From a bacterium (lineage in GTDB: Bacteria > Electryoneota > RPQS01): a stretch of 64,000 bases of DNA. This document shows, piece after piece, positions 14,861 through 64,000 of this stretch (position 1 is its first letter; each line of letters begins with the position of its first letter). Made by a program: the position numbers and the translations under genes. Under the pieces are notes generated by a model, which searched no databases, was not told the origin of the DNA, and saw only the letters and a list, made by a program, of their open reading frames with translations. The DNA is taken from NCBI GenBank assembly GCA_016721565.1, contig JADKHW010000006.1:31286-95285 (forward strand), written 5' to 3'.

Positions 14861-15948
14861 TGAGATACAGCGCCCTCACGATACTCCTATCAGCTTGCAC
14901 TGTATTCGCTGGTGTTCGAGTTGGTGATTTGACCAACTATCCAAACAGTACCCCCGTGACGCTTACCGGATACGGTTTGATTGTCGGGCTTGCCGGAACA
15001 GGCGACGGCAGCAAATCCACATTCACTCCGCAGACGTTTGCGAGCATGCTCAAGCAGTTTGGCATTGAAGTCGCTCCCGGCGACCTCAAGTTGAAGAATG
15101 TCGCTGCTGTGATGGTTTCCTGTGAAATGCCTGCAGGCGCAAGACGTGGCTCGCGGATTGACGCGCTTGTTTCGTCGCTTGGTGACGCGACGAGTCTGCA
15201 AGGAGGAACACTTCTGCGAACGGTGTTGAATGATCCGTGGAACAACCCGATTGCTGAAGTGCAAGGCCCTATTTCAATCGGCGGCTTTAATTTTGAAACG
15301 GGCGGATCGCGCGTCTCGCGTAACCATTCAGTTGCAGGTCGTATCCCCGGAGGTACTGTGTTATTCGAAGACGGGCCAGAGCTTCCCGCACCTGCCGATA
15401 GCTTCATGCTTGTTTTGGAACAACCGGATTTGCGGATGGCGGTTAACGTGACAAAAGCGATCAACGCGCTTTACGTAGGTTCGGCTCGCACCGAAGATCC
15501 GTCATCGGTTATCGTGAGCGTTCCCGCGATGTTTGAGTCACAAAGTGATCGCCTCGAGTTTCAATCGATCATCGAAGACGTCGAAGTGGAGCCTGCGGGG
15601 ACGGACAAAATTGTCATCAACGAGCGCACAGGCACGATTGTCGTCGGAACCGCTGTCTCACTCTTGCCAACTGCCATCGCGCACGGAAATTTGACCGTCG
15701 AAATCACCGAGCGCCCCGTGATTAGTCAACCGAATGCGTTCGGGCAGGGCCAGACAATTGTTGAAAAGCAAAGTACGATCACCGTCGAAAATGCGGGCGA
15801 AGGACTAAAAGAAGTTGCCGGAGCCGCATCAGCTGGTGATGTCGCGCGCATGCTCAATTCGCTCGGAGTTACTCCTCGCGATATGATCGCCATTTTTCAA
15901 GGACTCAAAGCCGCAGGCGCCCTGCGCGCAGAATTGGTCATAATCTAA
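14848..15948 (+). CDS. flgI: Flagellar P-ring protein FlgI
   Basis: Signal peptide and conserved LTGYGLIVGLAGTGDG motif. 366 aa. Confidence 0.9.
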   Translation: MDLLMRYSALTILLSACTVFAGVRVGDLTNYPNSTPVTLTGYGLIVGLAGTGDGSKSTFTPQTFASMLKQFGIEVAPGDLKLKNVAAVMVSCEMPAGARRGSRIDALVSSLGDATSLQGGTLLRTVLNDPWNNPIAEVQGPISIGGFNFETGGSRVSRNHSVAGRIPGGTVLFEDGPELPAPADSFMLVLEQPDLRMAVNVTKAINALYVGSARTEDPSSVIVSVPAMFESQSDRLEFQSIIEDVEVEPAGTDKIVINERTGTIVVGTAVSLLPTAIAHGNLTVEITERPVISQPNAFGQGQTIVEKQSTITVENAGEGLKEVAGAASAGDVARMLNSLGVTPRDMIAIFQGLKAAGALRAELVII

Positions 15949-29425: not shown

Positions 29426-30981
29426 GTCGTCGGGCTTTGGTCATCGCCGTCACCAGACTTGGCGATATCATCCAAACCGAGCCGATGGTTCGTGCGTTGA
29501 AAGCTGAGGGGCGCTTTGATAAAGCAACGGTTCTTGTCGAACGATCTTTCGCCGACATCGCAGGTAGAATAACTAGCGCTGATGAACTGAAGTGCATTGA
29601 CTTTGAAGCCATTCTTGGTCGACTTGACCGATCCTGTGCCGCGCTTCCTATGCGAGAATATCTTGCGCTTGCTGATTGGCTTCTGCGCAACAGTTTCGAT
29701 ACTGTATATAACGTCACGCACTCGAGGCCGTCGATGATGCTGGCTGCATTGGCAAGTCATGAAACACAAGGTGTGACGCTCGACCAACAAGGGATGCAGG
29801 TTGTCAATAATCGCTGGCTTCAGTACTTCTTCGCGACAAATTTGGCGCGTCCGTGGTGTTCTTTCAATTTGGTTGACATTTATGTCAATGCCGTTGACCC
29901 ATTAGTCGCACAGTCAGAACGCAAACCCCAATTGGTTTCAGGCGGCGCGCGTGACAAGAGAACTTTGAAATTCAATGATGGAGAGGTGTTGCTTCATGTT
30001 GGAGCCTCTAAGTCTGACAAGCAGTGGCCTCTTGAGAAGTTTGTTGTGCTGAGTCAATATTTGCTTGACCGTGGTTTGAGTGTGACACTACTCGGCGGTG
30101 GAAAGTCCGAGGCGATCAGCCGTGCATTTCCTGCGCACAAGAACTTCCAGGACTTGCTCGGAATGACGTCCATTGGTGACTTGTTTGACCTTTGTCAAAA
30201 CGCAAGCCTTTTGGTGTCTGCTGACTCCGGTCCCGTTCACGTTGCTGCCGCGTGTGACCTGCCAATCATCGCCATTGAAGGCGGATCGGCGCACGGCTTT
30301 GAGACGGCGCCTTATAAGGTAGGTTCAATCGTCATTCAGCCCCACCTTGACAGAGTGATGTCCCGCAGACCGACCAAGCATGCAACCTCTGCTTCTTCTG
30401 ATTTGGTTAGCGTGGAAACAGTCATTTCGGCGATTGACTTCTTAGCGGGTGGATCGGATCAAATCACTTCATCGCCGCAGTGCACGGTTTATGAAACGAT
30501 AAACGGTGAAAATGTACCTGGATTAGATTTGCGTGCAATTAGCGGAAGCAATTCAGAGTACGAAGAGTGGCAGCAGAGGCTGAGACGATTCTGGTGGCGC
30601 GTTGGCGGAGGCCACTCGTCCTGCAATAGTCAACCAGCCAACGACTTGACATCCTGCGCTATGGCTTCGGCAAAGGCAGCAAGACTCATTTCGCAAGCCG
30701 GAAACAATTTCACGTCGCTTGAAGAAAGTGCTGCAAGTTTGAGCGCAACGGAGCACTCCCTAACTAAAATGATTGAAGCTTATCCACCGCTGCATCACTT
30801 GAACTTTTTTCTGCAAATTGCGCGCTCAAGTGTTCATGGAGAATTGCCGCATGAACAGGCTCAAGAACTTGAAAAGCTCTACGATGATGTCGCGGAGGCA
30901 GCAGCCGAGTTGGAGCTAACTCCGAGTCATCGATCAGTTAAGAAACAGTATAATTCAAATAGTGAGAAGGTACCAGCATGA
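29395..30981 (+). CDS. GT9-family (ADP-heptose heptosyltransferase-like) glycosyltransferase with C-terminal extension
   Basis: RRALVIAVTRLGDIIQTEPMVRALK ... LLHVGASKSDKQWPLEKFVVL ... DSGPVHVAAACDLPIIAIEG. Strong GT9 pattern. Confidence 0.75.
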   Translation: MGSRKRCYSMSRRALVIAVTRLGDIIQTEPMVRALKAEGRFDKATVLVERSFADIAGRITSADELKCIDFEAILGRLDRSCAALPMREYLALADWLLRNSFDTVYNVTHSRPSMMLAALASHETQGVTLDQQGMQVVNNRWLQYFFATNLARPWCSFNLVDIYVNAVDPLVAQSERKPQLVSGGARDKRTLKFNDGEVLLHVGASKSDKQWPLEKFVVLSQYLLDRGLSVTLLGGGKSEAISRAFPAHKNFQDLLGMTSIGDLFDLCQNASLLVSADSGPVHVAAACDLPIIAIEGGSAHGFETAPYKVGSIVIQPHLDRVMSRRPTKHATSASSDLVSVETVISAIDFLAGGSDQITSSPQCTVYETINGENVPGLDLRAISGSNSEYEEWQQRLRRFWWRVGGGHSSCNSQPANDLTSCAMASAKAARLISQAGNNFTSLEESAASLSATEHSLTKMIEAYPPLHHLNFFLQIARSSVHGELPHEQAQELEKLYDDVAEAAAELELTPSHRSVKKQYNSNSEKVPA

Positions 30982-50012: not shown

Positions 50013-50326
50013 GCGCTGACGCGGCCTCAACGATTGTTTGGGGTCGCGTTTTTTTGTGGGGATTTTGGAGAGGCGAAGAGGGGTTGTAAGGGGTTGTTTC
50101 TGTGTAAAACGCTAATAATTGTCGGAACAGGAGTTGAGGATAAACAAGAGGTTAACTTTCGGGGGTGCACCTTTTTTCACGAAGTGTTATCTCGTTGATT
50201 TTGTTCATACCCTAATATACGATAATTTGAACGGATGGTCAAGTGATATTTTTGTTTTATTGAATTTAGTAAACTCTTGAGATGACTTGAGTTGTGTGAA
50301 AAATGAGGGTTGGGGAGGCATTTCTC

Positions 50327-50372
50327 GGATTTCGGCGGGGAACCGCTTCGCTAAATCCCCGCTCGGCGGAAA
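50327..50372. repeat. Hairpin-containing repeat element, copy A (GCGGGGA-N-TCCCCGC core)
   Basis: TTTCGGCGGGGAACCGCTTCGCTAAATCCCCGCTCGGCGG. Copy B at 52288-52342 carries a 13-nt hairpin insertion. Confidence 0.7.
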
Positions 50373-50479
50373 TGAGGCAAGGCCAAGGTCGATTTGTTAC
50401 CACCCCTTTATCCCCCCAGAGGACTGGGGGGAAATCAGAAAGCACTTGCGGAAGTGGTGGGGTGGGTGTAGATTGGGGT

Positions 50480-52282
50480 ATGAAGTGCGATTTTCTTCAG
50501 ACGCGAATTCTATCTGTATTCAATCTCTTGAAGCGGGTGGGGTTCGCGGTTTTGTTGTTGGGGGGAGCGGCGCAGTCCCAGCCACAGATTGACTGGAGGG
50601 AAGCTCGCATGATTGATGCTGACGTGTATTGGCACTTTCACAATATTGCAGTTTCCGGTGATACATTATTATTTGTTAAGTTCAATGAAGCTGGGCGGCC
50701 CGTTACCTGTTTTAGCTACGACAATGGATTAACTCATGGTGACTGGATCGAACATGGTGTAGATGAGGACAGAGCCTATAATACAGTTATAAGCACATCG
50801 GCGAATTGGTCCTATGTCTTCTGGGAAGACGATTTTCCATCAACGATGAGAGCAGAGGCAAGTTCAAATGCTGGATCGACGTGGCAGCCGCAAATTGAGC
50901 ATACAGGCGCGTGGCCACTAGCTGCATCAACTTCAGCCAGCACAACCGTCTTAGTGTACTCTGCGAGTTCGTCAGGTGCCGCTGTGGTAAAGGCACGTTG
51001 GGCGATTGACGGAACAAACTGGGGAACATCCCAAACGGTCGATACATTCAGGACTGAAATGGATGGCAATGATGTTACGCTGACGGCTACCCATACGTTG
51101 ATATCAGCTATTGAAGTGAATACAAACATGTATGACGACCGGATTCATGTTGCTCGTGGATCTAGGACTGGCATACCTTGGACACAATTTGAAGTGATGC
51201 CTAACCAGCCGTACGCTCAAGTCGTTCGAAGGGTTAGCCTAGCATCCGATACTACTTCGGAAAATGTTGTACTTGCGAGTGTTTGGGAAAGAGGTGTCTC
51301 AGGATTCGGAGATGCGGACGTATTTGTTACGCACAGCCCGGACGGGGGCGAGAGTTGGGAAACACCGCAACAGCTCACGGAAGGAGCTCCTATTTCTTGG
51401 GCTTCCTATGATGACATAAAAGCTTTCTGCAAAGGAAATCTGTATGGATTGGCTTGGAGCTATGATACTGCTGATGACATCGAGGATTGGAGTCTGAACT
51501 TCAGATATTCAGCTAATCACGGCAGATTTTGGTACCCTGCGCAGGAAATTAACTCGTTTGTGCGCGGAACCAGAATTACAACAGGACAATTTGTTGGGAG
51601 TGAAGTACGTGTCTATTGGGACGTGGCGCTTGACTCAAACTTCACAGAATTTTCTTTGCGAACAGTCTCGGGGCTTCTCACACCTGACACATTATCTCCA
51701 GAACTTGAGAACCTCTGGAATCTTCCTGAAATTGTATCCTCCGACACTACACTCGAGTTAAGTGTACTGGCAACGGACGACGACTCGCTGTGGAGCGTTG
51801 AGTTTGTGGCATATCTACAGGGCGCTCCAGAAGTGTCTTCAATAGTTGTGCTTGAGCACTTATCCTCTTCGCAGTTTGAAGGGTTTTGGACGGTTCCAGC
51901 TGACACGGCGATGTGGGTTTGCTTCTATCGTGCAGAAGATTTGTGGGAGAATGTGGCGACAACCTTGCCAGAGACGTTATTTGTTGGTACGATTCAAGCT
52001 GGTGGTAGTACTCCAACGATTGTGAATAAATTTTCACTTTCTGCATTTCCTAACCCATTCAACTCGACGCTTTCGATTTCGTTGGATGTGCCGTTGCATC
52101 GGGATGTGACGCTTGGGTTGTATGATTTGTTGGGGAGAGAGGTGGATGTGGTTTATCGGGGGAGACTCTCGTCTTCTACTGTTTCTTATGTTGCGCCTGC
52201 GGCGATGGCGAGTGGGGTTTATTTTTTGAGGGCGAGTGCGAATTCGCAATCTGTTTTGGGGAAAGTGGTTTTGTTGAAATAG
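50480..52282 (+). CDS. Secreted BNR/sialidase-like repeat protein with T9SS C-terminal sorting domain
   Basis: Signal peptide MKCDFLQTRILSVFNLLKRVGFAVLLLGGAAQSQ. BNR-like SxDxGxxW (HSPDGGESWETP, SNAGSTWQP). C-terminal Por_Secre_tail-like FPNPFNSTLSISL...GVYFLRA...KVVLLK. The true start is 50480, not 50303. Confidence 0.75.
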   Translation: MKCDFLQTRILSVFNLLKRVGFAVLLLGGAAQSQPQIDWREARMIDADVYWHFHNIAVSGDTLLFVKFNEAGRPVTCFSYDNGLTHGDWIEHGVDEDRAYNTVISTSANWSYVFWEDDFPSTMRAEASSNAGSTWQPQIEHTGAWPLAASTSASTTVLVYSASSSGAAVVKARWAIDGTNWGTSQTVDTFRTEMDGNDVTLTATHTLISAIEVNTNMYDDRIHVARGSRTGIPWTQFEVMPNQPYAQVVRRVSLASDTTSENVVLASVWERGVSGFGDADVFVTHSPDGGESWETPQQLTEGAPISWASYDDIKAFCKGNLYGLAWSYDTADDIEDWSLNFRYSANHGRFWYPAQEINSFVRGTRITTGQFVGSEVRVYWDVALDSNFTEFSLRTVSGLLTPDTLSPELENLWNLPEIVSSDTTLELSVLATDDDSLWSVEFVAYLQGAPEVSSIVVLEHLSSSQFEGFWTVPADTAMWVCFYRAEDLWENVATTLPETLFVGTIQAGGSTPTIVNKFSLSAFPNPFNSTLSISLDVPLHRDVTLGLYDLLGREVDVVYRGRLSSSTVSYVAPAAMASGVYFLRASANSQSVLGKVVLLK

Positions 52283-53984: not shown

Positions 53985-54067
53985 GGAGGACTAGTCTAAT
54001 TGGTAAGGCAACGGTCTTGAAAACCGTCGGGCGAAAGCCTTTGGGAGTTCGAGTCTCCCGTCCTCCG
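53985..54067 (+). tRNA. tRNA-Ser (anticodon UGA), class II with long variable arm
   Basis: Acceptor GGAGGAC/GTCCTCC. Anticodon stem ACGGT-CTTGAAA-ACCGT is near-identical to the E. coli tRNA-Ser(UGA) arm. Variable arm GGGCGAAAGCC. T-arm GGGAG-TTCGAGT-CTCCC. Confidence 0.8.
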
Positions 54068-54101
54068 CAAGTATTATAGAAAACAGCATTTTGGGGTTCC
54101 T

Positions 54102-54614
54102 ATGCGGAAGGTTGTGCTGTTTGCGGCCTCCAGTCTGGACGGCTTTATTGCCAGACCTGACGGAGCTATTGACTGGCTCTTTCAGGATGGTGACTACGGT
54201 TTTTCAGAGTTCATGGAGACTGTCGATTCTGTCGTGCTGGGCCGCAAGACCTACGAGGTCGCCAAAGCGCTGGGAGACGATTCCCTGACGGCTGGGGAGC
54301 ATTGGATTGTCAGCCGCAATCCGGACAAGCACGCCGGAGGCAAGGCGCGCTTCGGGACTTTGGATCAGGTTGGCGATTGGCTGAGATCATCGGTGTCCGA
54401 AAAAGCGGTTTGGCTGATCGGCGGAGGTGAATTGACTGCGGCATTTTTGGATCGCGGTTGGCTGAACGAAATTGTGCTGGCGATTCATCCGCGTTTGTTG
54501 GGCATGGGGATTGGCATCAGTCCGAATCTGCTGAACGACGCTGTGCTGACTTATCGCAAGCATAAGGTCTTTGACAATGGATTGATACAAGTTTGGTACG
54601 ATGTGGCTCGCTGA
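54102..54614 (+). CDS. Dihydrofolate reductase-family protein (RibD C-terminal domain type)
   Basis: MRKVVLFAASSLDGFIARPDGAIDWL...VVLGRKTYE is the typical RibD_C/YwjB-like pattern. 170 aa. Confidence 0.75.
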   Translation: MRKVVLFAASSLDGFIARPDGAIDWLFQDGDYGFSEFMETVDSVVLGRKTYEVAKALGDDSLTAGEHWIVSRNPDKHAGGKARFGTLDQVGDWLRSSVSEKAVWLIGGGELTAAFLDRGWLNEIVLAIHPRLLGMGIGISPNLLNDAVLTYRKHKVFDNGLIQVWYDVAR

Positions 54615-54632
54615 GGCCACCAAAGAATTTCA

Positions 54633-54722
<90 letters not shown>

Positions 54723-54844: not shown

Positions 54845-55970
54845 ATGAAAAGACCAGACACGCCGAATGTGCGTTCCCGAAAGAATCCAAGCGGTGAACG
54901 CGTGTACTTCGTCGACTACTTCGACTTTGAAAAGAACAAGCGAGTACGCGAAGTCGTTGGTCCGCGAAAGGCTGAAGCAGATCGTCGGGCAGCCGAAATC
55001 TATCAGCAACGAAAGGATGAGTACTTAGGCGTTGCCGTGCCGACGGCCAATGACATTACCCTGGGCGAGCTTATCGACGCATTCTTCCGTAGCAAAGTAG
55101 GTCGCGTTGCGCCTTCAACAATCAAGCGGTATAGAATTCATGCAGCGCACTTAGTTGCCTTTGTCAACAAGAATTTCCCCAAAGTCAAGAACATTCGAGC
55201 GATTCGCAAGGTCTACATCGAGGAACTTTTTGAAGCTTTGCGACGGCAAGCAATGGAGCCCAAGACCCTAAACGCACAACTTCAATTTGTGAAGGCAATC
55301 TTCATCTTCGCCGAACACGAAGGGTATCTTACTGAAAGCCCTGCGAAACGAATCAAACCGTTTCGCGAGACCAAGCAATCCCAAGCAGTGCCATACTGGT
55401 CGAAAATCGAAGTTGTTTCGATTCTTGCGGAAGTGAAACAGGGTGGAGGACGCCTATGAATTCTTGTATCACACGGGGCTGCGTAAGGGCGAACTTTCCA
55501 ATCTCACTTGGGATGATGTTGACCTTGATCACGACCCTCCTTCAATTGCCATTCAAGCAAAAGATGATTGGACAACGAAAACCTTGAAGCGGCGAATCGT
55601 TCCGCTGAATACAAGAGCAGCGGAGATAATCAAACGTCAGGCTCGAAGCAAAAAACACAACTACGTTTTCAAAGCTCCAGAAGGTGGGCAAATCCACCCA
55701 GATAAGATTTATCGCGAACTGAAACGCGCACTGGCTGTCTTGAATCTCGAAGGTGATGTTCACCAGTGGCGACACACATTTGCATCCCATCTTGTGATGA
55801 GTGGAGTTGATATCGCTACGGTCTCCAAACTATTAGGGCATCATTCCATCGAAAAAAGCCATGAAATACCCCCTCTTGCTCCTGGACCACTTGGCGGCGG
55901 GTGTGAGATCACTTGGCGCAAAGGGAAAGAGTGGGGGACGACGCAAACTTTACATCATTTTATGCCTTGA
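54845..55970 (+). pseudogene. Tyrosine recombinase/phage integrase, disrupted by a frameshift near 55443-55459 and a probable second one in an A6 run near 55853
   Basis: N-terminal SAM-like/core-binding domain ORF (54845..55459) and catalytic-domain ORF (55443..55970) are in different frames. The catalytic ORF has R..HxxR (HQWRHTFASHL) and LLGHHSIEK, but the terminal Tyr motif is out of frame. Deleting one A restores ...MKY...LDHL. Confidence 0.7.
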
Positions 55971-55986: not shown

Positions 55987-56018
55987 TAAAGAAGCAAGAG
56001 CTCTGCATTGTGCAGGGC
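55987..56018 (+). terminator. Rho-independent terminator after integrase
   Basis: AAGAGCTCTGCA-TTG-TGCAGGGCTCTT followed by TTCGTTT. Confidence 0.65.
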
Positions 56019-56050
56019 TCTTTTCGTTTCCACCCCCCAAAGGAGTTCCC

Positions 56051-56263
56051 ATGAAAGTCAAAGTCCTCTGCCTTGGCCGCTCGGCCAAGGAAATCAACGT
56101 CAGTGACGGTACGACCGTCGAACAAGCCATCGCGGAATGCGGATTCCCGAAGGATTCGAGCTATACCCGGCACCTGAACGGCAGCCCGTGTTTTGACACG
56201 GATATTCTGGTCGACAACGCCGTGTTGACGTTGGTGCCACAAGTGAAAGGCGGGGGTTGTTAG
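56051..56263 (+). CDS. Ubiquitin-like beta-grasp protein (ThiS/MoaD-like) ending in GGG-C
   Basis: 70 aa. MKVKVL...HLNGSPCFDTDILVDNAVLTLVPQVKGGGC. RBS AAAGGAG 6 nt upstream. The C-terminal Gly-Gly is followed by a single Cys, as in precursor Ubls trimmed by JAB peptidases. Confidence 0.75.
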   Translation: MKVKVLCLGRSAKEINVSDGTTVEQAIAECGFPKDSSYTRHLNGSPCFDTDILVDNAVLTLVPQVKGGGC

Positions 56264-56346
56264 ACAGCGTTCCTGACTGTCTACCAATTAAGGGAGGGCT
56301 GCGGTTCAAGTAACCGTGGCCCTCTCTTTCCTCCGGAGGAACGCTT

Positions 56347-56415
56347 ATGATTGAACAACAAATCCGCACGTTGTGCCGATTCTATGAACAGAAATGGCAT
56401 GTGCCGATTACATAA
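56347..56415 (+). CDS. Leader mini-ORF (22 aa, MIEQQIRTLCRFYEQKWHVPIT) with strong RBS, overlapping the E2 start via TAATG
   Basis: GGAGGA sits 6 nt upstream of the ATG. Its stop TAA overlaps ATG 56415 of the downstream gene. No RBS precedes any candidate start of the E2 gene itself. Confidence 0.4.
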   Translation: MIEQQIRTLCRFYEQKWHVPIT

Positions 56416-57455
56416 TGACACAAGACATGGACCTGCTTTGTTGGCACGAAGTTGGGATTGCTGTCCGTACTCATACGGATCCTGATTCAGCATTCTCAAA
56501 GAATGTCTCAGGTGATCCGCTTGTGATGGAATCAGTGCTTGTCGGCAAGGTTTCACCGACTTGGATTGTGCTGTACGGTGCGCCTCGTGTCGATGTGACT
56601 TCGAACATCCTTGACGCACATCTTCCACGTATGTGCCGGACGTTTAGAGAACGTCAAAGGGAGACATTGATCGACACGATGCAAACTGTGGCTGCCGAAC
56701 GGAAGCATGAACTTGCAATCTCGCTTAGAGATGACCGATACGAACTCGAACGACTTTGCATGCAGGTGATGACTCTATCACGCAAAGTCGAAGGAGACCG
56801 TGAGATACTGAACATGTTCAGCAGGGCACCGGAATTCATCAAAGCGAAGGCGACGCGGACATTCGTGGAAATGATGCGACTGGTTCCCAGTTGTTATTCG
56901 CATATCAACGTCGTCGAGAAGTCTGTGCTTGCCGAGACGTATCCGATCACACTGGAACACGATGGTGGAAGTTACAACTTCGAACCTTATGTGGTTGAAG
57001 TGGACTTGGACAAGGGCAAAGTGTTGATCAGCGGCGGAACCGAATGCAACGGTTACATACATCCGCATGTCACGGATGATCCTAACAACATTTGTTGGGG
57101 TAACATCGGACATCTTGTATCTCGACTGACTGGTGAACTTGACTTGCATGGACTGCTCCAACTTGTTCATCAGTTTCTGCATAGCTACAATAGTTCAGAT
57201 CCGTTTCAAAAGATCGAGAAGTGGGATCCCGATTGGGTTGAAGACGAAGATGACAATGATTCATACTGTTCGTGGTGTGATGATTACGGCCACGATGTTT
57301 CAGAATGTGACTATTGCAGTTGGTGTGAACACTGTGATCAGTACGACGAACACAGTGAAGAGAACTGCCCAAACCGTCCCAAAGATGAAGATGAAGACGA
57401 AGGAGAGGAGGAAGCCGATGCAGAACTTGCAGAGGACACCGCGACAGCCGGTTGA
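56415..57455 (+). CDS. E2-like (UBC-fold) ubiquitin-conjugating enzyme homolog with N-terminal extension and C-terminal CxxC-rich acidic tail (alternative start 56394)
   Basis: UBC-like core: beta-strands (YPITLEHDGGSYNFEPYVVEVDLDKGKVLI), HPN-like motif with catalytic Cys (YIHPHVTDDPNNICWGNIGHL), following helix (LHGLLQLVHQFLHSY). Tail: CSWCDDYGHDVSECDYCSWCEHC...C then DEDEDEGEEE. Confidence 0.65.
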   Translation: MTQDMDLLCWHEVGIAVRTHTDPDSAFSKNVSGDPLVMESVLVGKVSPTWIVLYGAPRVDVTSNILDAHLPRMCRTFRERQRETLIDTMQTVAAERKHELAISLRDDRYELERLCMQVMTLSRKVEGDREILNMFSRAPEFIKAKATRTFVEMMRLVPSCYSHINVVEKSVLAETYPITLEHDGGSYNFEPYVVEVDLDKGKVLISGGTECNGYIHPHVTDDPNNICWGNIGHLVSRLTGELDLHGLLQLVHQFLHSYNSSDPFQKIEKWDPDWVEDEDDNDSYCSWCDDYGHDVSECDYCSWCEHCDQYDEHSEENCPNRPKDEDEDEGEEEADAELAEDTATAG

Positions 57456-58131
57456 TGCTGGTGTGAAGATTCAAGTCGAGGCCGAGGCTATGCAGAAGCT
57501 ATGGCTGTGGACTGATTTTGCGAGAGGTGAGGTTAGTTGCCTCGGACTCGTGGATGAAGTTGTTAGCACGGACACTGGTCGCACGACGGCGTTGATTGTC
57601 ACCGACTTCTTTCTGGTAAAGCAGGATTGCACTTCCGACGAAACCGATATGGATGTTGCGGATGTTGCCAGATTGATATCCGAACTGGAAGCGAAGGGAA
57701 TTGACTCGCGTAAGCTTCGTTGCTGGGCACACTCGCATGCGACGATGAGCGTATTCTGGTCAGGTCAGGATGAATCATGTATCAGTGGACTTGCCAATGC
57801 TGAGTGGCTACTCAGCTTGGTCGTGAATAAACGTCGTGACACACAGATGCGCCTTGACCAGTTCCATCCCAGTCATATGTACATTCCTGATGTCGTGTGG
57901 GAAGTGAAATATCCACTGGTGGACGGCCTCGCAGAAGCATGCTTTGATGAGTTCAAGGCCAAAGTCCACGAAGGTACTTTCATGCCAAGAACACGCGATG
58001 TTGTCAGTGGAAGAGATCGTCTTTGGAATGAGCTGGACCATGCGAGGGAACGAGGTGCTTTGACAATGGATGACCTTGATGACGAATTGAATTGGCTGGG
58101 GATTGAACGTGACGACTTTGAACCATATTAG
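57418..58131 (+). CDS. JAB/MPN (JAMM) metalloprotease, predicted Ubl-processing/deconjugating peptidase
   Basis: JAMM motif HSHATMSVFWSGQD (HxHx7Sx2D) with upstream Glu (GEVSCLGLV). RBS GAAGGAGAGGAGG precedes ATG 57418. Overlaps the E2 3' end by 38 nt. Confidence 0.8.
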   Translation: MQNLQRTPRQPVDAGVKIQVEAEAMQKLWLWTDFARGEVSCLGLVDEVVSTDTGRTTALIVTDFFLVKQDCTSDETDMDVADVARLISELEAKGIDSRKLRCWAHSHATMSVFWSGQDESCISGLANAEWLLSLVVNKRRDTQMRLDQFHPSHMYIPDVVWEVKYPLVDGLAEACFDEFKAKVHEGTFMPRTRDVVSGRDRLWNELDHARERGALTMDDLDDELNWLGIERDDFEPY

Positions 58132-58139
58132 GAGACCAC

Positions 58140-58788
58140 ATGAACGACATGCGATTCTTACGTCAAAAAGATGTTGTCGATACCGAGAAGCTTGCGAACC
58201 TGCAAGTAACGTTGATCGGTCTGGGGAGCATTGGGAGCGTCACTGGTCTGTATCTTGCCAAGATGGGCGTGGTCAAATTGACCACCTTCGATTCAGACAT
58301 CGTCGATGTCCACAATGTCAGCAATCAGGCTTATGGGATGTCTGATGTTGGATTGCTGAAGACTGATGCATTTGCAACGCTTGTCGAGAACCAAACTGGA
58401 GTGCTTCCAAACACCGTAGGTCTACAGTATGATGGTCGACAGCTTTCCGGTGTCGTGATTTCTGCGTTGATTCCATGAGTCTCGTAAAACGATCTGGAAA
58501 TCTATACGAGAACAGCCAAGCGTCAGGTTGTATGTTGACGCACGCATGGGTCTTGAAACACTGGTTGTCCACGCAGTGAGACCACAACTCCTAATCGACA
58601 GACTGAAGTATTCACAATCAATTGTACCTGACGACCAAGCTCTGCAAGAACCATGCACGGCACGAACGATTTGTTACACGCCTTTGATGGCCGCGGTTGT
58701 TTGCAATCTTGTGAAACGGTTTATCAATCAGGAAGTACTGCCAAGCCAAGTCACTCTTGATCTTGCAACATTCACTTTGATGGCCTGA
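58140..58788 (+). CDS. E1-like (ThiF/MoeB-type) adenylyltransferase, interrupted by a +1 frameshift around 58470-58478
   Basis: Frame 0 (58140..58478): Rossmann VTLIGLGSIGSVTGLYLAKMGVVKLTTFDSDIVDVHNVSNQ (GxGxxG plus D...N.Q). Frame +1 opens at 58471 and continues to 58788 with ThiF-like C-terminal segments (YVDARMG..., EPCTARTICYTPLMAAVVCNLVKRFI). Confidence 0.65.
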
Positions 58789-58901
58789 GCGGAATTATCA
58801 GTGGAATCCCCGAAAAACTCGTGAAGTCATAAGACCGGCAAGCCACTGACCGTGATATAAAGGGATTTGTGAATAAGCGGATCCGCTGAGGCAGGTTACA
58901 A

Positions 58902-59306
58902 ATGGAATTCACGCCCACCGAAGAGGTGTCTGCCAAACTGACGCCTGCTGAGATAATTGTGCAAGACCAGCCAGGCCGGTTGCTTCTTCCTGCACATGAG
59001 CTTGTTGTGCCGGCAGCGCCCGTCACCTTTTGTCACGCAGCAAGGGATAACATCATGCCCACTTTTCAATTCACGACACACGAACGTTGGGATCATGTTG
59101 TAGAGTATTCTGTTAATGCGCCAACTCTCGAAACCGCTGTTCGAATGGCAGTGACGGGAAAAGTGACATATACCAGTGCAGAATATCAAGAGGGTAATCC
59201 AGTTCAAGAAGTTTTGTCCATTCTTGAGGTGATTAATCACGACAACAAAGAGGTAATCAACAATGAAAAGAAGCTGAAGAAACTGCTTGACAACTCCGTT
59301 GGCTGA
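58902..59306 (+). CDS. Hypothetical 134-aa protein (last gene of the Ubl operon block)
   Basis: ORF followed by a strong terminator. No recognisable motif. Confidence 0.4.
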   Translation: MEFTPTEEVSAKLTPAEIIVQDQPGRLLLPAHELVVPAAPVTFCHAARDNIMPTFQFTTHERWDHVVEYSVNAPTLETAVRMAVTGKVTYTSAEYQEGNPVQEVLSILEVINHDNKEVINNEKKLKKLLDNSVG

Positions 59307-59312
59307 TAATAC

Positions 59313-59338
59313 AAAGATAGGGGGGAACCCCTATCTTT
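59313..59338 (+). terminator. Rho-independent terminator
   Basis: AAGATAGGGG-GGAA-CCCCTATCTT-TT perfect 10-bp stem. Confidence 0.8.
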
Positions 59339-59624
59339 TAGCCTTTTCTGGACATATTTGTCGACTTTATAAGCCTCTATTGGTGGTTGCTATTGATAAA
59401 CATGGAAGAACGATGTAAATTAAGTATGGGCAAGTTAACCGACCTCAACTGATTGAATTACTGGCATTTGTTCATGACGCGACCCGAACTGACTGTAGAA
59501 GAATTTACGCACTACACAAAATGAAATCCTAACCATGAATCTCTTGACTAAGTCAAGTCGAAATCCTTTCTTGTTCTCAGGTCTTGTGAATCTGACGCGC
59601 ACACTTAGCTTGGAGACCACGAAT

Positions 59625-60887
59625 ATGACGCGAATTCTATCTGTATTCAATCTTTTGAAGCGGGTGGGGTTCGCGGTTTTGGTACTGGGGGTGACAAATG
59701 GGCACTCGCAATCATGGGAGCTCATGGATGAATTACCTGAACGTTCGGAAGTTGAGTGCATTACAATTGATGCCCAGACGGGAAGCATATTTGCAGGCAC
59801 GGCTCGAATTTTTGGTTTTCCGGAATGTGGAGGAATTTACAAGTATAATCAAATAGATGGAATTTGGGAATATAAGCAGTTTAGAGAAACAACAATAAGT
59901 AATATCCTCAGACTCCAGAATGACCATACATATATTTATGCATGCACAGAAGAGGGATTAGCACGGTCCAATGACGACGGTGAATCATGGCAGCTTTTTG
60001 ACGATCATCCGGGAAATTCTTCAAACATAGCTATGTCTCCCAACGATAGTACCCTATGGGCAGTTGGTCTTTCTCCTGTGGAGTCGACACGGCTCTATTT
60101 AGTTAGAGACGGCATTGAGTGGGAGCTTATTGATTCATCGCTTCCATGGACTGGTGGTCTCGGTTTTTCAAGTACGGATTCGACAATTCTCTACATGGCC
60201 ACAAACAACTTTTGCTATCGCCTCAATCTACAAACGAGAGTAAGGGAGCAGATTTTCCCATGGAATTTTTATGGCTACAGAACATTATACTTGTCACACG
60301 AAGAGCCTAATGTCTTTTTCTTAGAGCTTCATTCGATCTTCCGTTATGACGAAGAGACTTCCTTGTATGATTCGGTCTTCTTTCCAGCGGGCAGTGGACG
60401 TGCCAACAGATGGGCGATCTCTTCATCGGAAGAAATAACCGTCGCAGCCGATAGCATGCTACTTGAAATCAACAGCGATTTGACTTCTGTTGACATTCTT
60501 ACGCCGCCTGAACTCGGATTAGGCGGAAGTGCAATTGGGATCGATACTGTCACAGGCATACGGTATGTAGCAGTTGAAAACAGAATTTATGTCGAATTGC
60601 CAACGGCTGTCGACAATATAGGTCGGCCTGAAGAATTCCCTCTTTCTGTCTTCCCCAATCCCTTCAATTCGAGTATATCTATTTCCCTCCGCATTGCTCC
60701 ATATCAAAGAACGACTTTGTCATTATATGACATACTAGGCCGTGAAGTGGACGTCTTTCATCTCGGACGAATTAATCGCGAGACAATTCATTACACAGCT
60801 CCTTCATCATTAGCAAATGGCATCTATTTCATTCGAGTAGAGATTGGGGAGTGGCACGCGCTACAAAAGGTCATCTTGTTGAAGTGA
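59625..60887 (+). CDS. Secreted beta-propeller-like protein with T9SS C-terminal sorting domain (paralog family of 50480..52282)
   Basis: Signal peptide MTRILSVFNLLKRVGFAVLVLGV is nearly identical to that of the first T9SS protein. C-terminal FPNPFNSSISISL...GIYFIRV...KVILLK. The true start is 59625, not 59535. Confidence 0.75.
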   Translation: MTRILSVFNLLKRVGFAVLVLGVTNGHSQSWELMDELPERSEVECITIDAQTGSIFAGTARIFGFPECGGIYKYNQIDGIWEYKQFRETTISNILRLQNDHTYIYACTEEGLARSNDDGESWQLFDDHPGNSSNIAMSPNDSTLWAVGLSPVESTRLYLVRDGIEWELIDSSLPWTGGLGFSSTDSTILYMATNNFCYRLNLQTRVREQIFPWNFYGYRTLYLSHEEPNVFFLELHSIFRYDEETSLYDSVFFPAGSGRANRWAISSSEEITVAADSMLLEINSDLTSVDILTPPELGLGGSAIGIDTVTGIRYVAVENRIYVELPTAVDNIGRPEEFPLSVFPNPFNSSISISLRIAPYQRTTLSLYDILGREVDVFHLGRINRETIHYTAPSSLANGIYFIRVEIGEWHALQKVILLK

Positions 60888-60994: not shown

Positions 60995-62437
60995 ATGCTA
61001 CCGCGCAAGTTCTGCACCATTTCTATTACCGCCGTTGTCTTTCTCTGTCTATTATGGTCTTTTGGATTCGTGATTGCAAGTACGAATGTCCAAAGTGGTG
61101 TTTGGAAGGGCATACCAGTTGAATTTAGGAAAGGGGAAGCGTTACTCGTCACAGAGGATGAAGAAATTTGGACTGATCTTACGACACTGCGCACCACATT
61201 GTCAGTCACGACGCCTGATTCGACAACAGGAGGTGGTTATTTTATGATTCAATTTCCTGAAACGTCTAATGTGCTAAACATTTGCACTCAGTTTGAATCT
61301 GCAAATGGCGTAATCGCATGCATTCCGAGTCTTCGTATGCGCAAAGCATCGAATGATGCACACTTTGAGTATCAATGGAACATGTACAATGATGGAAGTC
61401 TTTATGCGGAAACTGAAGGTCATGACATCATGTTGGATGAAGCGCATGCAATATCTCGAGGTAACAGTGATGTCAAACTTGTTATTATTGATTCGGGCGT
61501 GCCTTGGGATTTTGATCTTGATCAACCGACTCATCTTGACCTAAACAACGATAATTTCCCCGAACATATTACTCGGGCAACGGAATTCCCAGAGGGTTTC
61601 ATTAACCCCTCTGACGTAGAGGGGCATGGAACTCAGGTGGCCGGCATTGCACTTGGGGAGGCTGACAACAATTATGGAATTGCTGGGGTATGTCCAGAGT
61701 GCAATGGGGTAGTTTATAAAGTGTGGAATAGTGATGAATCAGACAATTTTCTTGCACCTACTATGATGGGGATGTGGCGAGCTGCAAATTTAGAAGGCGA
61801 AGGGGACGATTATGACGATCCAACGGTAATATTGGTACCTTCGACACTCTTTACTCAAGGAATTGAAGGTGATCTTGATGCCTTGCGAGCCCTTGAAAAC
61901 TTGCTCAAGGACCTCGTTTATAGAAATCATAACAATCAGTGGCCTGATTATTCGACAAGAAATCTCTTCATATTCCCAACAGGCAACGAGAATCTTCATT
62001 ATGTTCCATATCCGGCAAGATTTGCGAGTTATGATAGAATTGAGAGTGGGGTCATTTCCGTAGGCGCGACAAACATATTTGATAATCGGTGGTGGGTTAA
62101 TGACGGCATTGGTTCAAATTATTGGGGAAGTAACGTTACGTTGTCAGCTCCAGGCGGAGGTGCAACGGAACCAGGGTGCGAGCCCGGAATTCTATCCAGT
62201 GATATCGTTAGTAGTAGGCAACATTCATGCTATTGGGGACTGCTGCAAGGTCCACATTCCGATTTTCTTTCGAACAAAGGTACTTCTATTGCGGCTGCCC
62301 ATGTTGCGGGGTTGGCTGGCCTAGTGTGGTCACTGAGTCCTAACCTAACAAACTGGCAGGTCAAGAACTACATGGTTGCCGGAGTAGATGCCATTGCGGA
62401 TGAAATGGGCGAAGGACGCGAGGTTGGTGCAGGGTGA
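60995..62437 (+). CDS. Subtilisin-like serine protease (peptidase S8) with signal peptide; ends at an in-frame TGA inside a conserved motif
   Basis: Catalytic triad motifs D (IIDSGV), H (GHGTQVAGIA), S (GTSIAAAHVAGLAGLV). The stop interrupts the G-x-G-(x)-I-N-A subtilase motif (EVGAG*INAFK). Confidence 0.8.
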   Translation: MLPRKFCTISITAVVFLCLLWSFGFVIASTNVQSGVWKGIPVEFRKGEALLVTEDEEIWTDLTTLRTTLSVTTPDSTTGGGYFMIQFPETSNVLNICTQFESANGVIACIPSLRMRKASNDAHFEYQWNMYNDGSLYAETEGHDIMLDEAHAISRGNSDVKLVIIDSGVPWDFDLDQPTHLDLNNDNFPEHITRATEFPEGFINPSDVEGHGTQVAGIALGEADNNYGIAGVCPECNGVVYKVWNSDESDNFLAPTMMGMWRAANLEGEGDDYDDPTVILVPSTLFTQGIEGDLDALRALENLLKDLVYRNHNNQWPDYSTRNLFIFPTGNENLHYVPYPARFASYDRIESGVISVGATNIFDNRWWVNDGIGSNYWGSNVTLSAPGGGATEPGCEPGILSSDIVSSRQHSCYWGLLQGPHSDFLSNKGTSIAAAHVAGLAGLVWSLSPNLTNWQVKNYMVAGVDAIADEMGEGREVGAG

Positions 62438-64000
62438 ATCAATGCGTTCAAAACATTGCTGCGGGTCCCCGTAGAGAAAAGGCTCCAAAGGGATCTCACG
62501 ATCAGGAAGAGTCCCTATCAAGGCGATTCTCCATATCAGTTGGACCGCGGAGACCTTGTGGTCCCTCCATTAGTCACCTTAACGATTGAGGCTGGTGTCT
62601 CCATCAATTTGCATCTTTCAGCGATTAGAGTTGAGCCAGGCGGTCGACTAGTTATCCTTGGTGAAGAAGGAAACGAAGTTGTGCTTCGTGGTTATTACCA
62701 AGATCAAATTCACGAGGGTGAGAGTGGTTGGACTGGCATAATTGCAGACGATGCGTCGTTAAGCATAAGTCACTGTGTGATCGAACGCGCAGAAAATGGA
62801 ATCGTACTTGGTGGTTCAAGCAATTTGCGGATGGATAACTCTCGCATAGTTAGTTCATACACGAATGGCTTGCGAGTATTGTCTGGAAGCCGCGCCACAT
62901 TGACGGATTGTGACGTACTTTTCAGTGCTGGAAGTGGTATTGATGCCCGCAATGCAGCTTTGGTTTCTTTGGAGCGCTGTGAAATTTCACATAACAATAC
63001 CCAAGGACAGTTGTTCAGTGGCGGCATCTTTGCGTTTTTTACTAACCAGTTAATGATCGAATGCTGTGAAATCACTGATAATGTCGGCGCAGGTATATAC
63101 GGATGGTGGTCGAACATTAGACTCACCCCAACTTCTGGAAATCCTACAATTGGTGGCCCAGGATATAGCGATTTCTCGGGCAACTCGTATATAAACGGAC
63201 AGTGCTTATTCAGGAGCTGTAGCGTACAAATGGAAGGCGGAAGAAACCGCTTTGGTGCTCCTCCTGCAGCACCGGAAGGTTGGTATTACCTCGAATTTGC
63301 TGATCATCCCGCTGTCATTGAACCTGTTAACTTGAATGGCAATCACTGGAGTATTACAGAGCCTGGGGAGGAGAACTGGATACTTGACCACATCCTTGCA
63401 ACCTCCCTTGACATTGTTCAAGATGGATTTGACTATGAGACCTCCTGGGATCTCTGCGACAACTCGACAATGCCGACCCTTTCTGTTTGCGATTCAGTTT
63501 GGGATACGGCAATTTTCAAGTTAGCACAAGACAGTTTCGAAACTGCATCAGTTCAGTTCAAAAACGTTTTGACTTCGGGTGATCAATGCGTCTTAAAGCC
63601 ACTTTCGCCACGTGTGATTGTGTCAAGTGAAAAATCTGCAGGTACTACGTACGGCGATATTGTGGATTACCTAACAGCGCGTGAAGACACAACAACCGAT
63701 TACGCCCTCAAATTCTCCCTAGCGCAAGCATCGGCAGAAGCAAAAGGCTATGATGGCGAGTTCACAGAGGCGATTTCAGAACTTGACTCGCTTGCGACAG
63801 ATTCTTACACTTCAATTTCTGATTCTGTCTCTTGTCTTACTTCCATAGCTAGCCTCGAGTTCTTACAGGCCATGAGAACTTTAACAAGTGCGGAAAGTGT
63901 TATGATGGCTGTGGATACTTTACAGTCTGCTCTCGATAACCTAACGTCATTCTTGGTCGGCGACGAAGTTTTCGCGCCGACACTGGAGCTTACGCCGCCT
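62438..64000 (+). CDS. Right-handed parallel beta-helix repeat region (3' partial), in frame with and probably originally contiguous with the S8 protease
   Basis: Same frame as 60995..62437, with no stop through to the window end. Repeats such as NGIVLGGSSNLRMDNSRIVSSYTNGLRVLSGSRATLTDCDVLFSAGSGIDARNAALVSLERCEISHNNTQGQ. The opposite-strand ORFs here are low-complexity antisense artefacts. Confidence 0.6.
   Translation, partial: MNAFKTLLRVPVEKRLQRDLTIRKSPYQGDSPYQLDRGDLVVPPLVTLTIEAGVSINLHLSAIRVEPGGRLVILGEEGNEVVLRGYYQDQIHEGESGWTGIIADDASLSISHCVIERAENGIVLGGSSNLRMDNSRIVSSYTNGLRVLSGSRATLTDCDVLFSAGSGIDARNAALVSLERCEISHNNTQGQLFSGGIFAFFTNQLMIECCEITDNVGAGIYGWWSNIRLTPTSGNPTIGGPGYSDFSGNSYINGQCLFRSCSVQMEGGRNRFGAPPAAPEGWYYLEFADHPAVIEPVNLNGNHWSITEPGEENWILDHILATSLDIVQDGFDYETSWDLCDNSTMPTLSVCDSVWDTAIFKLAQDSFETASVQFKNVLTSGDQCVLKPLSPRVIVSSEKSAGTTYGDIVDYLTAREDTTTDYALKFSLAQASAEAKGYDGEFTEAISELDSLATDSYTSISDSVSCLTSIASLEFLQAMRTLTSAESVMMAVDTLQSALDNLTSFLVGDEVFAPTLELTPP

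What the first reader, a model, noticed from the sequence alone, without database searches (positions are those of the whole stretch)
56051..58788. Compact Ubl-E2-JAB-E1 operon: candidate Bil-type bacterial ubiquitin-like conjugation (antiphage) system
Four consecutive, partly overlapping genes encode a Ubl, an E2-like enzyme, a JAMM peptidase and an E1-like enzyme.
(i) The Ubl is a 70-aa ThiS/MoaD-like beta-grasp protein ending ...VKGGG-C.
(ii) The E2 has a UBC-type core with an HPN-like motif and candidate catalytic Cys (IHPHVTDDPNNICWGNIG).
(iii) The peptidase carries a canonical HxHx7Sx2D JAMM motif.
(iv) The E1 is a ThiF/MoeB-type Rossmann enzyme (GLGSIGS...D.D.V.NQ).
The gene order Ubl-E2-JAB(DUB)-E1 is the arrangement reported for BilABCD systems, which conjugate a Ubl to phage tail proteins. 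A Ubl precursor with one residue after Gly-Gly, next to a JAB peptidase, fits processing-dependent activation. None of these four genes has a housekeeping sulfur-carrier context (no MoaE, ThiG, ThiF-rhodanese or cysteine synthase nearby). The block sits on an integrase-bearing island.
Basis: partly seen in the sequence, partly recalled or inferred. Interest (0 to 1): 0.9.

Follow-up and report, generated by a model that had tools for sequence, protein, structure and literature searches.

The report
Phage-linked ubiquitin-like tagging cassette, decayed copy
The four genes are a real ubiquitin-like protein-tagging kit (tag, E2, trimming peptidase, E1), but it is not a Bil system: it belongs to a large undescribed family found mostly in uncultured phage genomes and small integrase islands, and this copy appears broken by frameshifts.

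Summary
All four components were confirmed.
- Ubl: a SAMP2/ThiS-like beta-grasp. The family conserves ...VKGG followed by 1-2 variable residues.
- E2: a UBC-fold enzyme with an invariant HPH...C motif, inside a 365-aa multidomain protein.
- Peptidase: Rpn11-like JAMM.
- E1: a minimal 217-aa ThiF-type enzyme.

The order Ubl-E2-JAB-E1 holds in 19 related bacterial loci (partly redundant, some cut by contig ends). The E2-JAB-E1 core holds in about 27 uncultured viral contig stretches.

The E2 gene starts at 56347 and is frameshifted near 56413. E1 has two 1-nt deletions (after 58465 and 58477). The adjacent integrase has at least 3-4 indels. Ten other genes tested in the window give good Pfam domain matches.

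It fails the Bil membership tests. The E1 is a single small domain rather than IAD-AAD-CYS. The Ubl is a single domain. No Pfam, PADLOC, NCBIfam or PHROG model matches the E2 or JAB.

The E2 belongs to an unmodelled superfamily of about 1,800 clusters at 50% identity. Members sit beside phage DNA polymerase, primase and terminase genes.

Most likely this is a mobile-element or phage-borne Ubl-conjugation conflict cassette. Whether it defends the host or serves the phage is open.

The parts
54632..54721 (+). tRNA-Ser(GCU), probable integration site of the islet
   Evidence: ARAGORN. The integrase starts about 120 nt downstream. The same tRNA-end/integrase junction is seen in the related locus L001. 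No second copy of the tRNA 3' end was found in the window.
54845..55970 (+). Tyrosine integrase, pseudogene (at least 3-4 single-base indels; the catalytic-Tyr motif MKYAHLAP is out of frame)
   Evidence: Pfam Phage_integrase 4e-26 on the second fragment. tblastn against intact 361-366-aa homologues splits into two frames. Three-frame translation shows further shifts at the C-terminus.
55996..56022 (+). Terminator-like 12-bp hairpin between the integrase and the Ubl gene
   Evidence: Consensus scan; the number of such sites is not above shuffled expectation.
56051..56263 (+). Ubl precursor, 70 aa, SAMP2/ThiS-like beta-grasp; conserved ...PQVKGG followed by a variable 2-residue tail (GC). Intact.
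56347..57455 (+). E2-like protein (about 365 aa when intact). Domains: N-terminal alpha/beta domain, long helix, UBC core with HPH...C (IHPHVTDDPNNICWGN), Cys/His-rich two-knuckle region, acidic tail. Frameshifted near 56413.
57418..58131 (+). JAMM/MPN+ metallopeptidase, 237 aa (E38, HSHx7SxxD). Intact; overlaps the E2 3' end by 38 nt.
58140..58788 (+). Minimal ThiF/MoeB/UBA5-type E1 (about 217 aa when intact). Motifs: RxxRQ, GLGSIGS, DxD, VVISAVDSM, PCTAR with the only invariant Cys. Disrupted by 1-nt deletions after 58465 and 58477, giving a stop at 58476-58478.
59055..59306 (+). Accessory 83-aa gene of unknown function. Follows E1 in 4 of 20 related loci. 95% nt identical to L025, although the cassette itself is only 75-81% identical.
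   Evidence: no family match.
59320..59345 (+). Terminator-like hairpin plus T-run closing the block
   Evidence: the sequence is conserved with L025.

Best explanation
This is a complete ubiquitination-like protein-conjugation cassette of a distinct, previously unmodelled family. The family is carried by phages and small integrative elements.

Inferred mechanism:
1. The JAMM peptidase removes the 1-2 residue tail of the 70-aa SAMP2-like Ubl, or separates tandem Ubl repeats in the viral versions, exposing ...VKGG.
2. The minimal E1, presumably a homodimer, adenylates the Gly and probably forms a thioester on the invariant Cys of its PC(T/S)xR loop.
3. The Ubl passes to the invariant Cys of the HPH...C UBC core of the E2.
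4. No E3 gene is in the cassette. The E2 is proposed to choose the target itself through its variable N-terminal domain and Cys/His-rich zinc region, and to ligate the Ubl to a target amine.
5. The JAMM peptidase can reverse the mark.

Biological role (inferred): phage-host or phage-phage conflict. For chromosomal islet copies such as this one, the most likely role is exclusion of incoming phages by tagging a phage or host protein, analogous to Bil but not homologous at family level.

The copy in this window is probably non-functional, because the E2, E1 and integrase are frameshifted.

Shown here: component identities, catalytic motifs, conserved gene order, phage and mobile-element carriage, and the disruptions. 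Inferred: every enzymatic step, the target, and the direction of the conflict.
For: Components:
- Ubl resembles SAMP2, E=5e-8.
- The GG+tail pattern holds in 18 loci and in viral Ubls, including tandem di-Ubls.
- E1 is ThiF-type, with an invariant PC(T/S)xR.

Cassette order:
- Conserved in all 19 bacterial loci as far as the contigs reach and in a distant member, L028.
- The E2-JAB-E1 core is seen in most of the 27 viral stretches, wherever the fetched stretch is long enough.

Mobile-element and phage carriage:
- An integrase lies within 7 kb in 10 of 20 loci.
- AEP-TOTE/DUF5906 primases are nearby in three distinct loci.
- Two to four copies occur per MAG.
- Viral neighbours include DNA polymerase, primase/helicase, terminase and methyltransferases.
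- Cassette turnover is suggested by an E1 remnant and a mosaic identity pattern.
- A CBASS operon is adjacent in L004.

Disruptions are confined to the island. FlgG, FlgA, FlgH, FlgI and several glycosyltransferases elsewhere in the window give good to full-length domain matches with no sign of being split.
Against: - No experiment of any kind supports any step.
- The target is unknown.
- No recognised defence-system model matches, and only one locus sits beside a known defence system.
- Carriage by large, apparently lytic-type phage genomes next to replication genes fits a phage-offensive role at least as well as a defensive one.
- The Cys/His region is only weakly similar to known zinc knuckles (E=0.3) and was modelled at moderate confidence.
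- The E1 lacks the usual Arg of the N..RQ motif (NVSNQ; read from the sequence against my recollection of the ThiF/MoeB motif), so its chemistry could differ.
- The frameshifts could be local consensus errors, since the record is a MAG.
Confidence: 0.55

Rival explanations
1. It is a bona fide Bil (BilABCD) antiphage system. [quoted passage not shown]
Against: - The E1 is a single 217-aa domain, not IAD-AAD-CYS (PMC11601596).
- The Ubl is a single SAMP2-like domain.
- The E2 is a 365-aa multidomain protein with a classical HPx...C motif. The CEHH/6d-type E2s have other catalytic signatures (PMC1779556).
- No PADLOC or NCBIfam hit for the Ubl, E2 or JAB.
- A Bil E1-E2-Ubl complex chain (8tz0_C) ranks only 48th in Foldseek, E=2.5.
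- Relatives are encoded by phages.
Confidence: 0.1
2. It is primarily a phage weapon or phage life-cycle module. Phages would use their own Ubl cascade to tag host proteins (takeover, anti-defence) or their own proteins. The chromosomal islet copies would then be prophage or satellite remnants with no host-protective role.
For: - All 27 IMG/VR stretches carrying the E2 signature encode a true family member (contigs 12-232 kb). They sit amid DNA polymerase, primase/helicase, methyltransferase, endonuclease VII and terminase genes.
- L026 places the cassette between a UvsX-like recombinase/DNA polymerase region and a 1526-aa protein.
- E2 N-terminal regions are hypervariable, with proteins of 350-800 aa.
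- The window copy is decaying next to a dead integrase.
Against: - Phages and satellites also carry defence systems against competitors, so phage carriage does not settle the direction.
- The close bacterial clade shows no recognisable phage structural genes nearby.
- That clade is retained intact in many MAGs at 2-4 copies per genome.
- No hit in 50,697 GenBank phage records, so no cultured example exists to test.
Confidence: 0.3
3. It is a sulfur-carrier/cofactor pathway of the MoaD-MoeB, ThiS-ThiF or TtuB type. The Ubl would be thiocarboxylated, and the E2-like and JAB genes would be incidental.
For: The Ubl hits ThiS models weakly. The E1's best named matches are ThiF and MoeB, all far below the curated cut-offs.
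Against: - The E2 and JAMM genes are linked to the Ubl and E1 in nearly all of about 47 loci.
- The Ubl carries a tail after GG that needs proteolysis.
- No MoaE, ThiG, ThiH, rhodanese or cysteine-synthase neighbour appears in any annotated context.
- The cassette is located on integrase islets and in phages.
Confidence: 0.02
4. It is a CBASS-type-II-like regulatory module (a Cap2/Cap3 analogue) that primes a neighbouring signalling enzyme rather than tagging with a free Ubl.
Against: - A dedicated Ubl gene was found in every bacterial locus analysed and in many viral ones.
- E1 and E2 are separate proteins.
- A CD-NTase is present in only one distinct locus and is absent from the window's neighbourhood and the other contexts examined.
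- The E2 has the HPx motif, which Cap2 lacks (10.1101/2022.03.31.486616, supplemental discussion).
Confidence: 0.03

Closest known systems
BilABCD (Bacterial ISG15-like) systems, types I and II
   Same: Four separate genes in the order Ubl-E2-JAB(DUB)-E1. No E3. A JAB peptidase that can pre-process the Ubl. Carriage in islands. Presumed E1 to E2 to target cascade.
   Different: - The Bil E1 is multidomain (IAD-AAD-CYS, catalytic Cys on an inserted domain); here it is a single ~217-aa domain with the Cys on a PC(T/S)xR loop.
- BilA often has 2-3 beta-grasp domains; here there is one SAMP2-like domain, or tandem cleavable repeats in the phage versions.
- The E2 here is 350-800 aa with extra domains, a zinc-rich C-terminus and a classical HPH...C motif.
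- No HMM-level match.
- This family is found in phage genomes.
Archaeal SAMP system (SAMP2, UbaA E1, JAMM1), e.g. P. furiosus SAMP2-JAMM1 (PDB 5LDA/5LD9)
   Different: To my knowledge sampylation uses no E2. Here a UBC-fold E2 is an obligatory, conserved partner. The context is phage or mobile element rather than housekeeping. The Ubl has a cleavable tail.
Canonical eukaryotic UBC E2 enzymes (e.g. UBE2D2, UBE2S)
   Different: The Asn of HPN is replaced by an invariant His. The core is embedded in a larger protein with an N-terminal domain, a long helix and Cys/His knuckles. Sequence identity is only about 10-20%.
Type II CBASS Cap2/Cap3, 6A-MBL and Bub (6E) operons
   Same: Bacterial E1/E2/JAB-type machinery in conflict contexts. 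A homodimer-type minimal adenylation domain with the Cys on the crossover loop (Cap2-like). A JAB peptidase.
   Different: Cap2 is an E2-E1 fusion that conjugates a CD-NTase and has no Ubl. Bub uses fusions, oxyester chemistry and a DUF6527 serine protease (PMC11601596). None of these features is present here.

Membership tests
BilABCD type I/II | [quoted passage not shown] | tested here: not met
   The E1 is 216-219 aa in all intact homologues, a single ThiF-type domain. Its best PDB relatives are UBA5, MoeB, Uba4, Cap2 and ThiF; no Bil chain is listed at E<=1.
BilABCD type I/II | Gene order Ubl-E2-DUB(JAB)-E1 as separate genes | tested here: met
   In viral relatives the Ubl may instead follow E1.
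BilABCD type I/II | Sequence-level homology of the Ubl, E2 and DUB to the Bil families | tested here: not met
BilABCD type I/II | [quoted passage not shown] | not testable with these tools
   Needs plaque assays and mass spectrometry.
UBC-fold E2 superfamily | UBC fold with the catalytic Cys after an HPN-type loop | tested here: met
JAMM/MPN+ metallopeptidases | MPN fold with E...HxHx7Sx2D zinc site | tested here: met
ThiF/MoeB/E1 adenylating enzymes | Rossmann GxGxxG, DxD, Mg-site Asp and N-terminal RxxRQ | tested here: met
   Pfam ThiF 4e-13; motifs invariant across the family. In the window the Mg-site region is frameshifted.
MoaD/MoeB or ThiS/ThiF cofactor pathways | Equivalog-level match and partner genes (MoaE, ThiG, etc.) | tested here: not met
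   NCBIfam scores are far below the cut-offs, for example ThiF 53 bits against 159 and MoeB 32 against 377. No partner genes in any context.
Pfam Prok-E2 / Prok-JAB / Prok_Ub families (named from memory) | Match to the Pfam models | tested here: not met
   No Pfam family at E<=0.1 for the window's E2 or JAB. At E<=0.01, 10 distant E2 superfamily members gave only one sub-threshold coiled-coil match.

The most novel reading that the evidence does not exclude
Uncultured bacteriophages, including jumbo-sized ones, widely encode their own complete ubiquitination-like system. It comprises polyubiquitin-like cleavable Ubl precursors, a minimal E1, an HPN-type UBC E2 with a built-in substrate-recognition and zinc module, and an Rpn11-like peptidase. 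They would use it during infection to tag host or rival-phage proteins. The islet in this window would be a decaying, integrase-linked offshoot of that viral system. This would be a prokaryotic-virus counterpart of ubiquitin manipulation by eukaryotic viruses, and a new lineage relevant to the origin of canonical E2s.
Probability: 0.35. Interest if true: 0.85.

Novelty: new variant of a known kind. Interest (0 to 1): 0.62.

Why it matters
Bacterial ubiquitination-like systems (CBASS Cap2/3, Bil, Bub) have only recently been shown to be real conjugation pathways, and those characterised so far are host-encoded immune systems.

This cassette defines a further large family: about 1,800 E2 clusters at 50% identity, none covered by Pfam, PHROGs, PADLOC or NCBIfam models. 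Several features make it notable.
- The E2 is unusually eukaryote-like (HPx...C, NxxDP).
- The Ubl resembles archaeal SAMP2, and some precursors look like polyubiquitin.
- The E1 is the smallest I know of among these systems.
- The family is carried by phages themselves.

It offers a minimal, E3-free system for studying how an E2 picks its targets. It also raises the testable question of whether phages ubiquitinate host or competitor proteins.

For the window itself the message is sobering: the local copy is probably a pseudogenised relic.

Tried and rejected
- Direct Pfam, PADLOC, PHROG and NCBIfam scans of the E2 and JAB gave no usable match. Structure prediction and profile methods were needed instead.
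- The JAB profile against PDB sequences gave nothing significant.
- I searched for an attR copy of the tRNA-Ser 3' end and for direct repeats. None was found, so the islet's right border is undefined.
- The search for related loci on metagenome contigs with superfamily alignments failed twice because there was no sufficiently conserved stretch. A back-translated DNA pattern on viral contigs worked instead.
- tblastn of three E2s against GenBank phages and one against PLSDB plasmids gave no match.
- PHROG annotation of unknown neighbours of the MAG loci was uninformative.
- An integrase HMM found no integrase in the short viral stretches.
- One literature search was wasted on the term 'zinc'.
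- I considered that the frameshifts reflect a generally error-prone assembly. This was rejected as a global explanation because ten other ORFs in the window give good Pfam domain matches and none looks split. A local consensus error cannot be excluded.
Full report
**Observation**

The region 56051-58788 holds four co-directional, tightly packed genes downstream of tRNA-Ser(GCU) (54632-54721) and a tyrosine integrase.

Ubl:
- The 70-aa protein gives only sub-threshold ThiS and SLBB hits on its own.
- A profile of 16 homologues matches Pyrococcus SAMP2 (5lda_B) at E=5e-8 over the full length, ending exactly at Gly-Gly.
- All 16 members scanned hit Pfam ThiS, best E=1.5e-6.
- Across 18 loci the sequence is strongly conserved (67-95% identity) up to ...PQVKGG. 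It is then followed by one or two variable residues: I, A, C, GC, GW, DR, LV or GQ. This is the signature of a precursor that must be trimmed.
- In this window the tail is G-C, two residues rather than one.

E2:
- The protein has no Pfam, PADLOC, PHROG or NCBIfam match.
- An AlphaFold2 model of the 84%-identical intact homologue P0001 is confident, with mean pLDDT 83.6.
- The model shows an N-terminal alpha/beta domain (1-80), a roughly 75-residue helix, an alpha-beta-meander-alpha-alpha core (162-295), and a Cys/His-rich tail.
- Foldseek alone was weak: its top two hits were E2s, at E=0.05 and 0.28.
HPH aligns on HPN, the conserved Cys on Cys85, and SYNxxDPY on DPNPDDPL.
- In the close family H241, C250 and G252 are invariant.
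- The C-terminal region has 8-9 conserved Cys/His, laid out as C-x2-C-x4-H-x4-C and then C-x2-C-x2-C...H...C. Its best, non-significant, match is the CLIP-170 CCHC knuckle.

JAB:
- The JAB (57418-58131) carries E38 and HSHATMSVFWSGQD.

E1:
- It matches Pfam ThiF at 4e-13.
- Its closest solved relatives by sequence are UBA5, MoeB, Uba4, Cap2 and ThiF.
- Invariant family motifs are RxxRQ, GxGxxG, DxD, K, VVISxVDSxxxRxxIW, DxRM and PC(T/S)xR. The last contains the only invariant Cys.

- E2. All homologues begin MIEQ(Q)IRTL.... In the window these 22 codons (56347-56412) lie in a different frame from the rest of the gene.
- E1. It is split into 58140-58478 and 58528-58788. Alignment to L025 shows two 1-nt deletions, after 58465 and after 58477. 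They turn VVISAVDSMESRK into VVISALIP-stop.
- Integrase. It is split at about 55440, and its C-terminus switches frame several times, so the catalytic-Tyr motif MKYAHLAP is out of frame.
- In the 19 related loci the same genes appear as single, full-length matches wherever the contig allows.
- Elsewhere in the window, FlgG, FlgA, FlgH, FlgI, four glycosyltransferase-domain proteins, a RibD_C protein and an S8 peptidase give good Pfam domain matches. Several are full-length (FlgI 1-343 of 343) and none looks split.
- The indels are therefore concentrated in the 4-kb islet.
- The window's JAB is identical to MBL0061248.1 from a MAG labelled 'bacterium'. The E2 fragment has no identical entry in the protein collection, which is consistent with its having been treated as a pseudogene.
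- A local consensus error in a metagenome assembly cannot be excluded.
- The Ubl, the JAB and a downstream 83-aa gene are intact.

**Family and context**

- The E2 has 76 close homologues and the JAB 136. All are unnamed and come from uncultured bacteria labelled 'bacterium', Calditrichaeota or KSB1.
- The order Ubl-E2-JAB-E1 is seen in every one of 19 loci, as far as each contig extends. Some loci are the same region fetched from two sources, and several are cut by a contig end.
- Two to four diverged copies occur per MAG.
- An integrase lies within about 7 kb in 10 of 20 loci. In four it is directly upstream, as here.
- AEP-TOTE/DUF5906 primases are nearby in three distinct loci.
- One locus has a CD-NTase plus patatin CBASS operon next door.
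- No MoaE, ThiG, rhodanese or cysteine-synthase partner occurs in any annotated context.
- An 83-aa gene (59055-59306) follows E1 in 4 of 20 loci. It is 95% nt identical between the window and L025, although the cassettes there are only 75-81% identical. L025 also carries a stray E1 C-terminal remnant. Together these suggest cassette replacement by recombination.

**The wider family is large and phage-borne**

- An exhaustive HMMER search with the E2 alignment found 1,797 cluster representatives at E<=1e-3 and 353 at E<=1e-10.
- They share the core (G)(Y/H)xHPH[VI]xxxGxxC[WL]GN...FLxSYNxxxPYxxIxxW.
- N-terminal regions are hypervariable (proteins of 350-800 aa) and the Cys-rich C-termini vary.
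- Ten distant members have no meaningful Pfam or PHROG match; one shows only weak coiled-coil-type hits.
- One distant member, P0213, sits in the same ThiS-like / E2 / 235-aa / ThiF cassette.
- In IMG/VR, an alignment scan found L026, from a 77-kb viral contig. It carries a Ubl ending ...IQGGC, a 662-aa E2, a JAB-motif protein and a 255-aa E1, between a DNA polymerase/UvsX-like recombinase region and a 1526-aa protein. E2 similarity is 7e-13 and E1 similarity 2e-25.
- A back-translated pattern for HPH[VIL]xxxGxPCxGN hit 27 viral stretches, against my rough estimate of about one by chance. The contigs are 12-232 kb.
- All 27 encode true family E2s. Wherever the fetched stretch is long enough, nearly all show the order E2-JAB-E1. 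The Ubl lies upstream of the E2 or downstream of the E1.
- Several viral Ubls are tandem di-Ubls in which each repeat ends (V/I)KGG, like polyubiquitin.
- Some loci have two E2 paralogues.
- Viral neighbours hit PHROGs for DNA polymerase, primase/helicase, DnaB-like helicase, DNA methyltransferases, endonuclease VII, an HNH endonuclease and the terminase large subunit.
- No relative exists in 50,697 GenBank phage records or in PLSDB plasmids.
- Literature searches of the held library found no description of such a phage-borne cassette.

**Comparison with known systems**

- Bil types I and II share the gene order. They are defined by a multidomain IAD-AAD-CYS E1 (PMC11601596 sec. 5; PMC10557695). 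Collimonas BilA is a di-Ubl ending in Gly, and its E1 catalytic residue is C385 (10.1101/2023.09.04.556158).
- The E2s of Iyer's 6c and 6d operons have non-classical catalytic signatures (PMC1779556).
- Here the E1 is a 217-aa single domain, the E2 has the classical His-Pro-x...Cys arrangement, and no model-level similarity to Bil components was found.
- Bub systems use fusions, oxyester chemistry and a DUF6527 protease. Cap2 is an E2-E1 fusion without a Ubl.
- The components resemble archaeal and eukaryotic prototypes (SAMP2, PfJAMM1/Rpn11, UBA5/MoeB, canonical UBC) at least as much as the characterised bacterial systems.
- I therefore file it as a new variant of the known kind 'prokaryotic Ubl-conjugation operon', not as a Bil member.

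**Mechanism and role**

The enzymatic cascade is inferred from conserved catalytic residues and from precedent. None of it is shown.
1. JAMM trimming of the Ubl.
2. E1 adenylation and thioester formation.
3. Transfer to the E2 as a thioester.
4. E3-independent ligation, directed by the E2's extra domains.
5. JAMM reversal.

The biological direction is open. Several features fit defence or superinfection-exclusion cargo: the position at the integrase or att edge of small integrative elements, multiple copies per genome, cassette turnover and an occasional CBASS neighbour. Carriage by large phage genomes next to replication genes fits a phage-offensive or takeover function equally well. I give the defence-like conflict reading about 0.45-0.55, the phage-offence reading about 0.3, true Bil membership about 0.1, and the sulfur-carrier and CBASS-regulator readings a few percent each.

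**Verdict**

The Bil label is a functional analogy, not a family assignment. The local copy is probably a relic. The family it reveals is widespread, unmodelled in the four HMM libraries searched, and phage-associated. That family is the interesting result.

Noticed in passing
window 12851-15948 and 22650-30981: An apparently intact flagellar basal-body gene run (FlgG, FlgA, FlgH, FlgI) and a cluster of glycosyltransferases (GT2, GT9, GT1-like, with TPR). Together with the Por_Secre_tail-type C-terminal sorting signals of neighbouring secreted proteins, this points to a flagellated FCB-group host.
   Followed up: partly
window 53985-54068 and 54632-54721: Two tRNA-Ser genes (UGA and GCU anticodons) flank a RibD_C/DHFR-like gene (54102-54614). 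The islet abuts the second tRNA. No attR repeat of the tRNA 3' end was found.
   Followed up: partly
window 60995-62926: The S8 peptidase ORF ends at 62437. However, similarity to the 1125-aa homologue of L001 continues in the same frame to 62926, so this gene may also be truncated by a stop or further damage.
   Followed up: no
window 50495-50584 and 59577-59690: Two secreted Por_Secre_tail-type proteins (50303-52282 and 59535-60887) share a nearly identical N-terminal signal segment (RILSVFNLLKRVGFAVL). The segment is also conserved (82% nt) in the L001 neighbour.
   Followed up: no
window 58789-59054: About 267 nt lie between E1 and the 83-aa gene. They are absent from L025, where the 83-aa gene follows E1 directly. 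They create a spurious 134-aa ORF (58902-59306). Their origin is unknown.
   Followed up: partly
L025 2207-2536: A stray 109-aa ORF homologous to the C-terminal half of the E1 sits after the 83-aa gene. It looks like the remnant of an earlier or second cassette, and suggests cassette replacement at these sites.
   Followed up: partly
L038 4207-4614; L050 2100-2513; L044 985-1443; L048 5421-5879; L055 11128-11586; L032 8680-9123: Viral Ubl genes encode two head-to-tail Ubl repeats. Each repeat ends (V/I)(K/E)GG, and the last is followed by one residue. This is a polyubiquitin-like precursor organisation.
   Followed up: partly
L032, L039, L045, L049: Two E2-superfamily paralogues per viral locus. 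They are adjacent in L039, L045 and L049, and flank the JAB-E1 pair in L032.
   Followed up: no
L004/L005 5827-7992: A CD-NTase (SMODS) plus patatin CBASS operon lies divergently next to the cassette. An AEP-TOTE primase and a beta-helix protein lie downstream.
   Followed up: no
L052 482-2077; L038 1741-3144; L047 11528-12934: A recurrent ATPase-like family of unknown function (phrog_8638/10401/3757/10440) lies near the viral cassettes. A sigma-54-activator-type AAA protein is near the cassette in L020.
   Followed up: no
E1 family (window 58290-58330): As I recall the ThiF/MoeB motif, the usual Arg of N-x-x-R-Q is replaced (HNVSNQ; HNLAAQ in the L026 viral homologue). The N-terminal RxxRQ is kept. 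The ATP-handling chemistry may therefore differ slightly from MoeB and ThiF.
   Followed up: no
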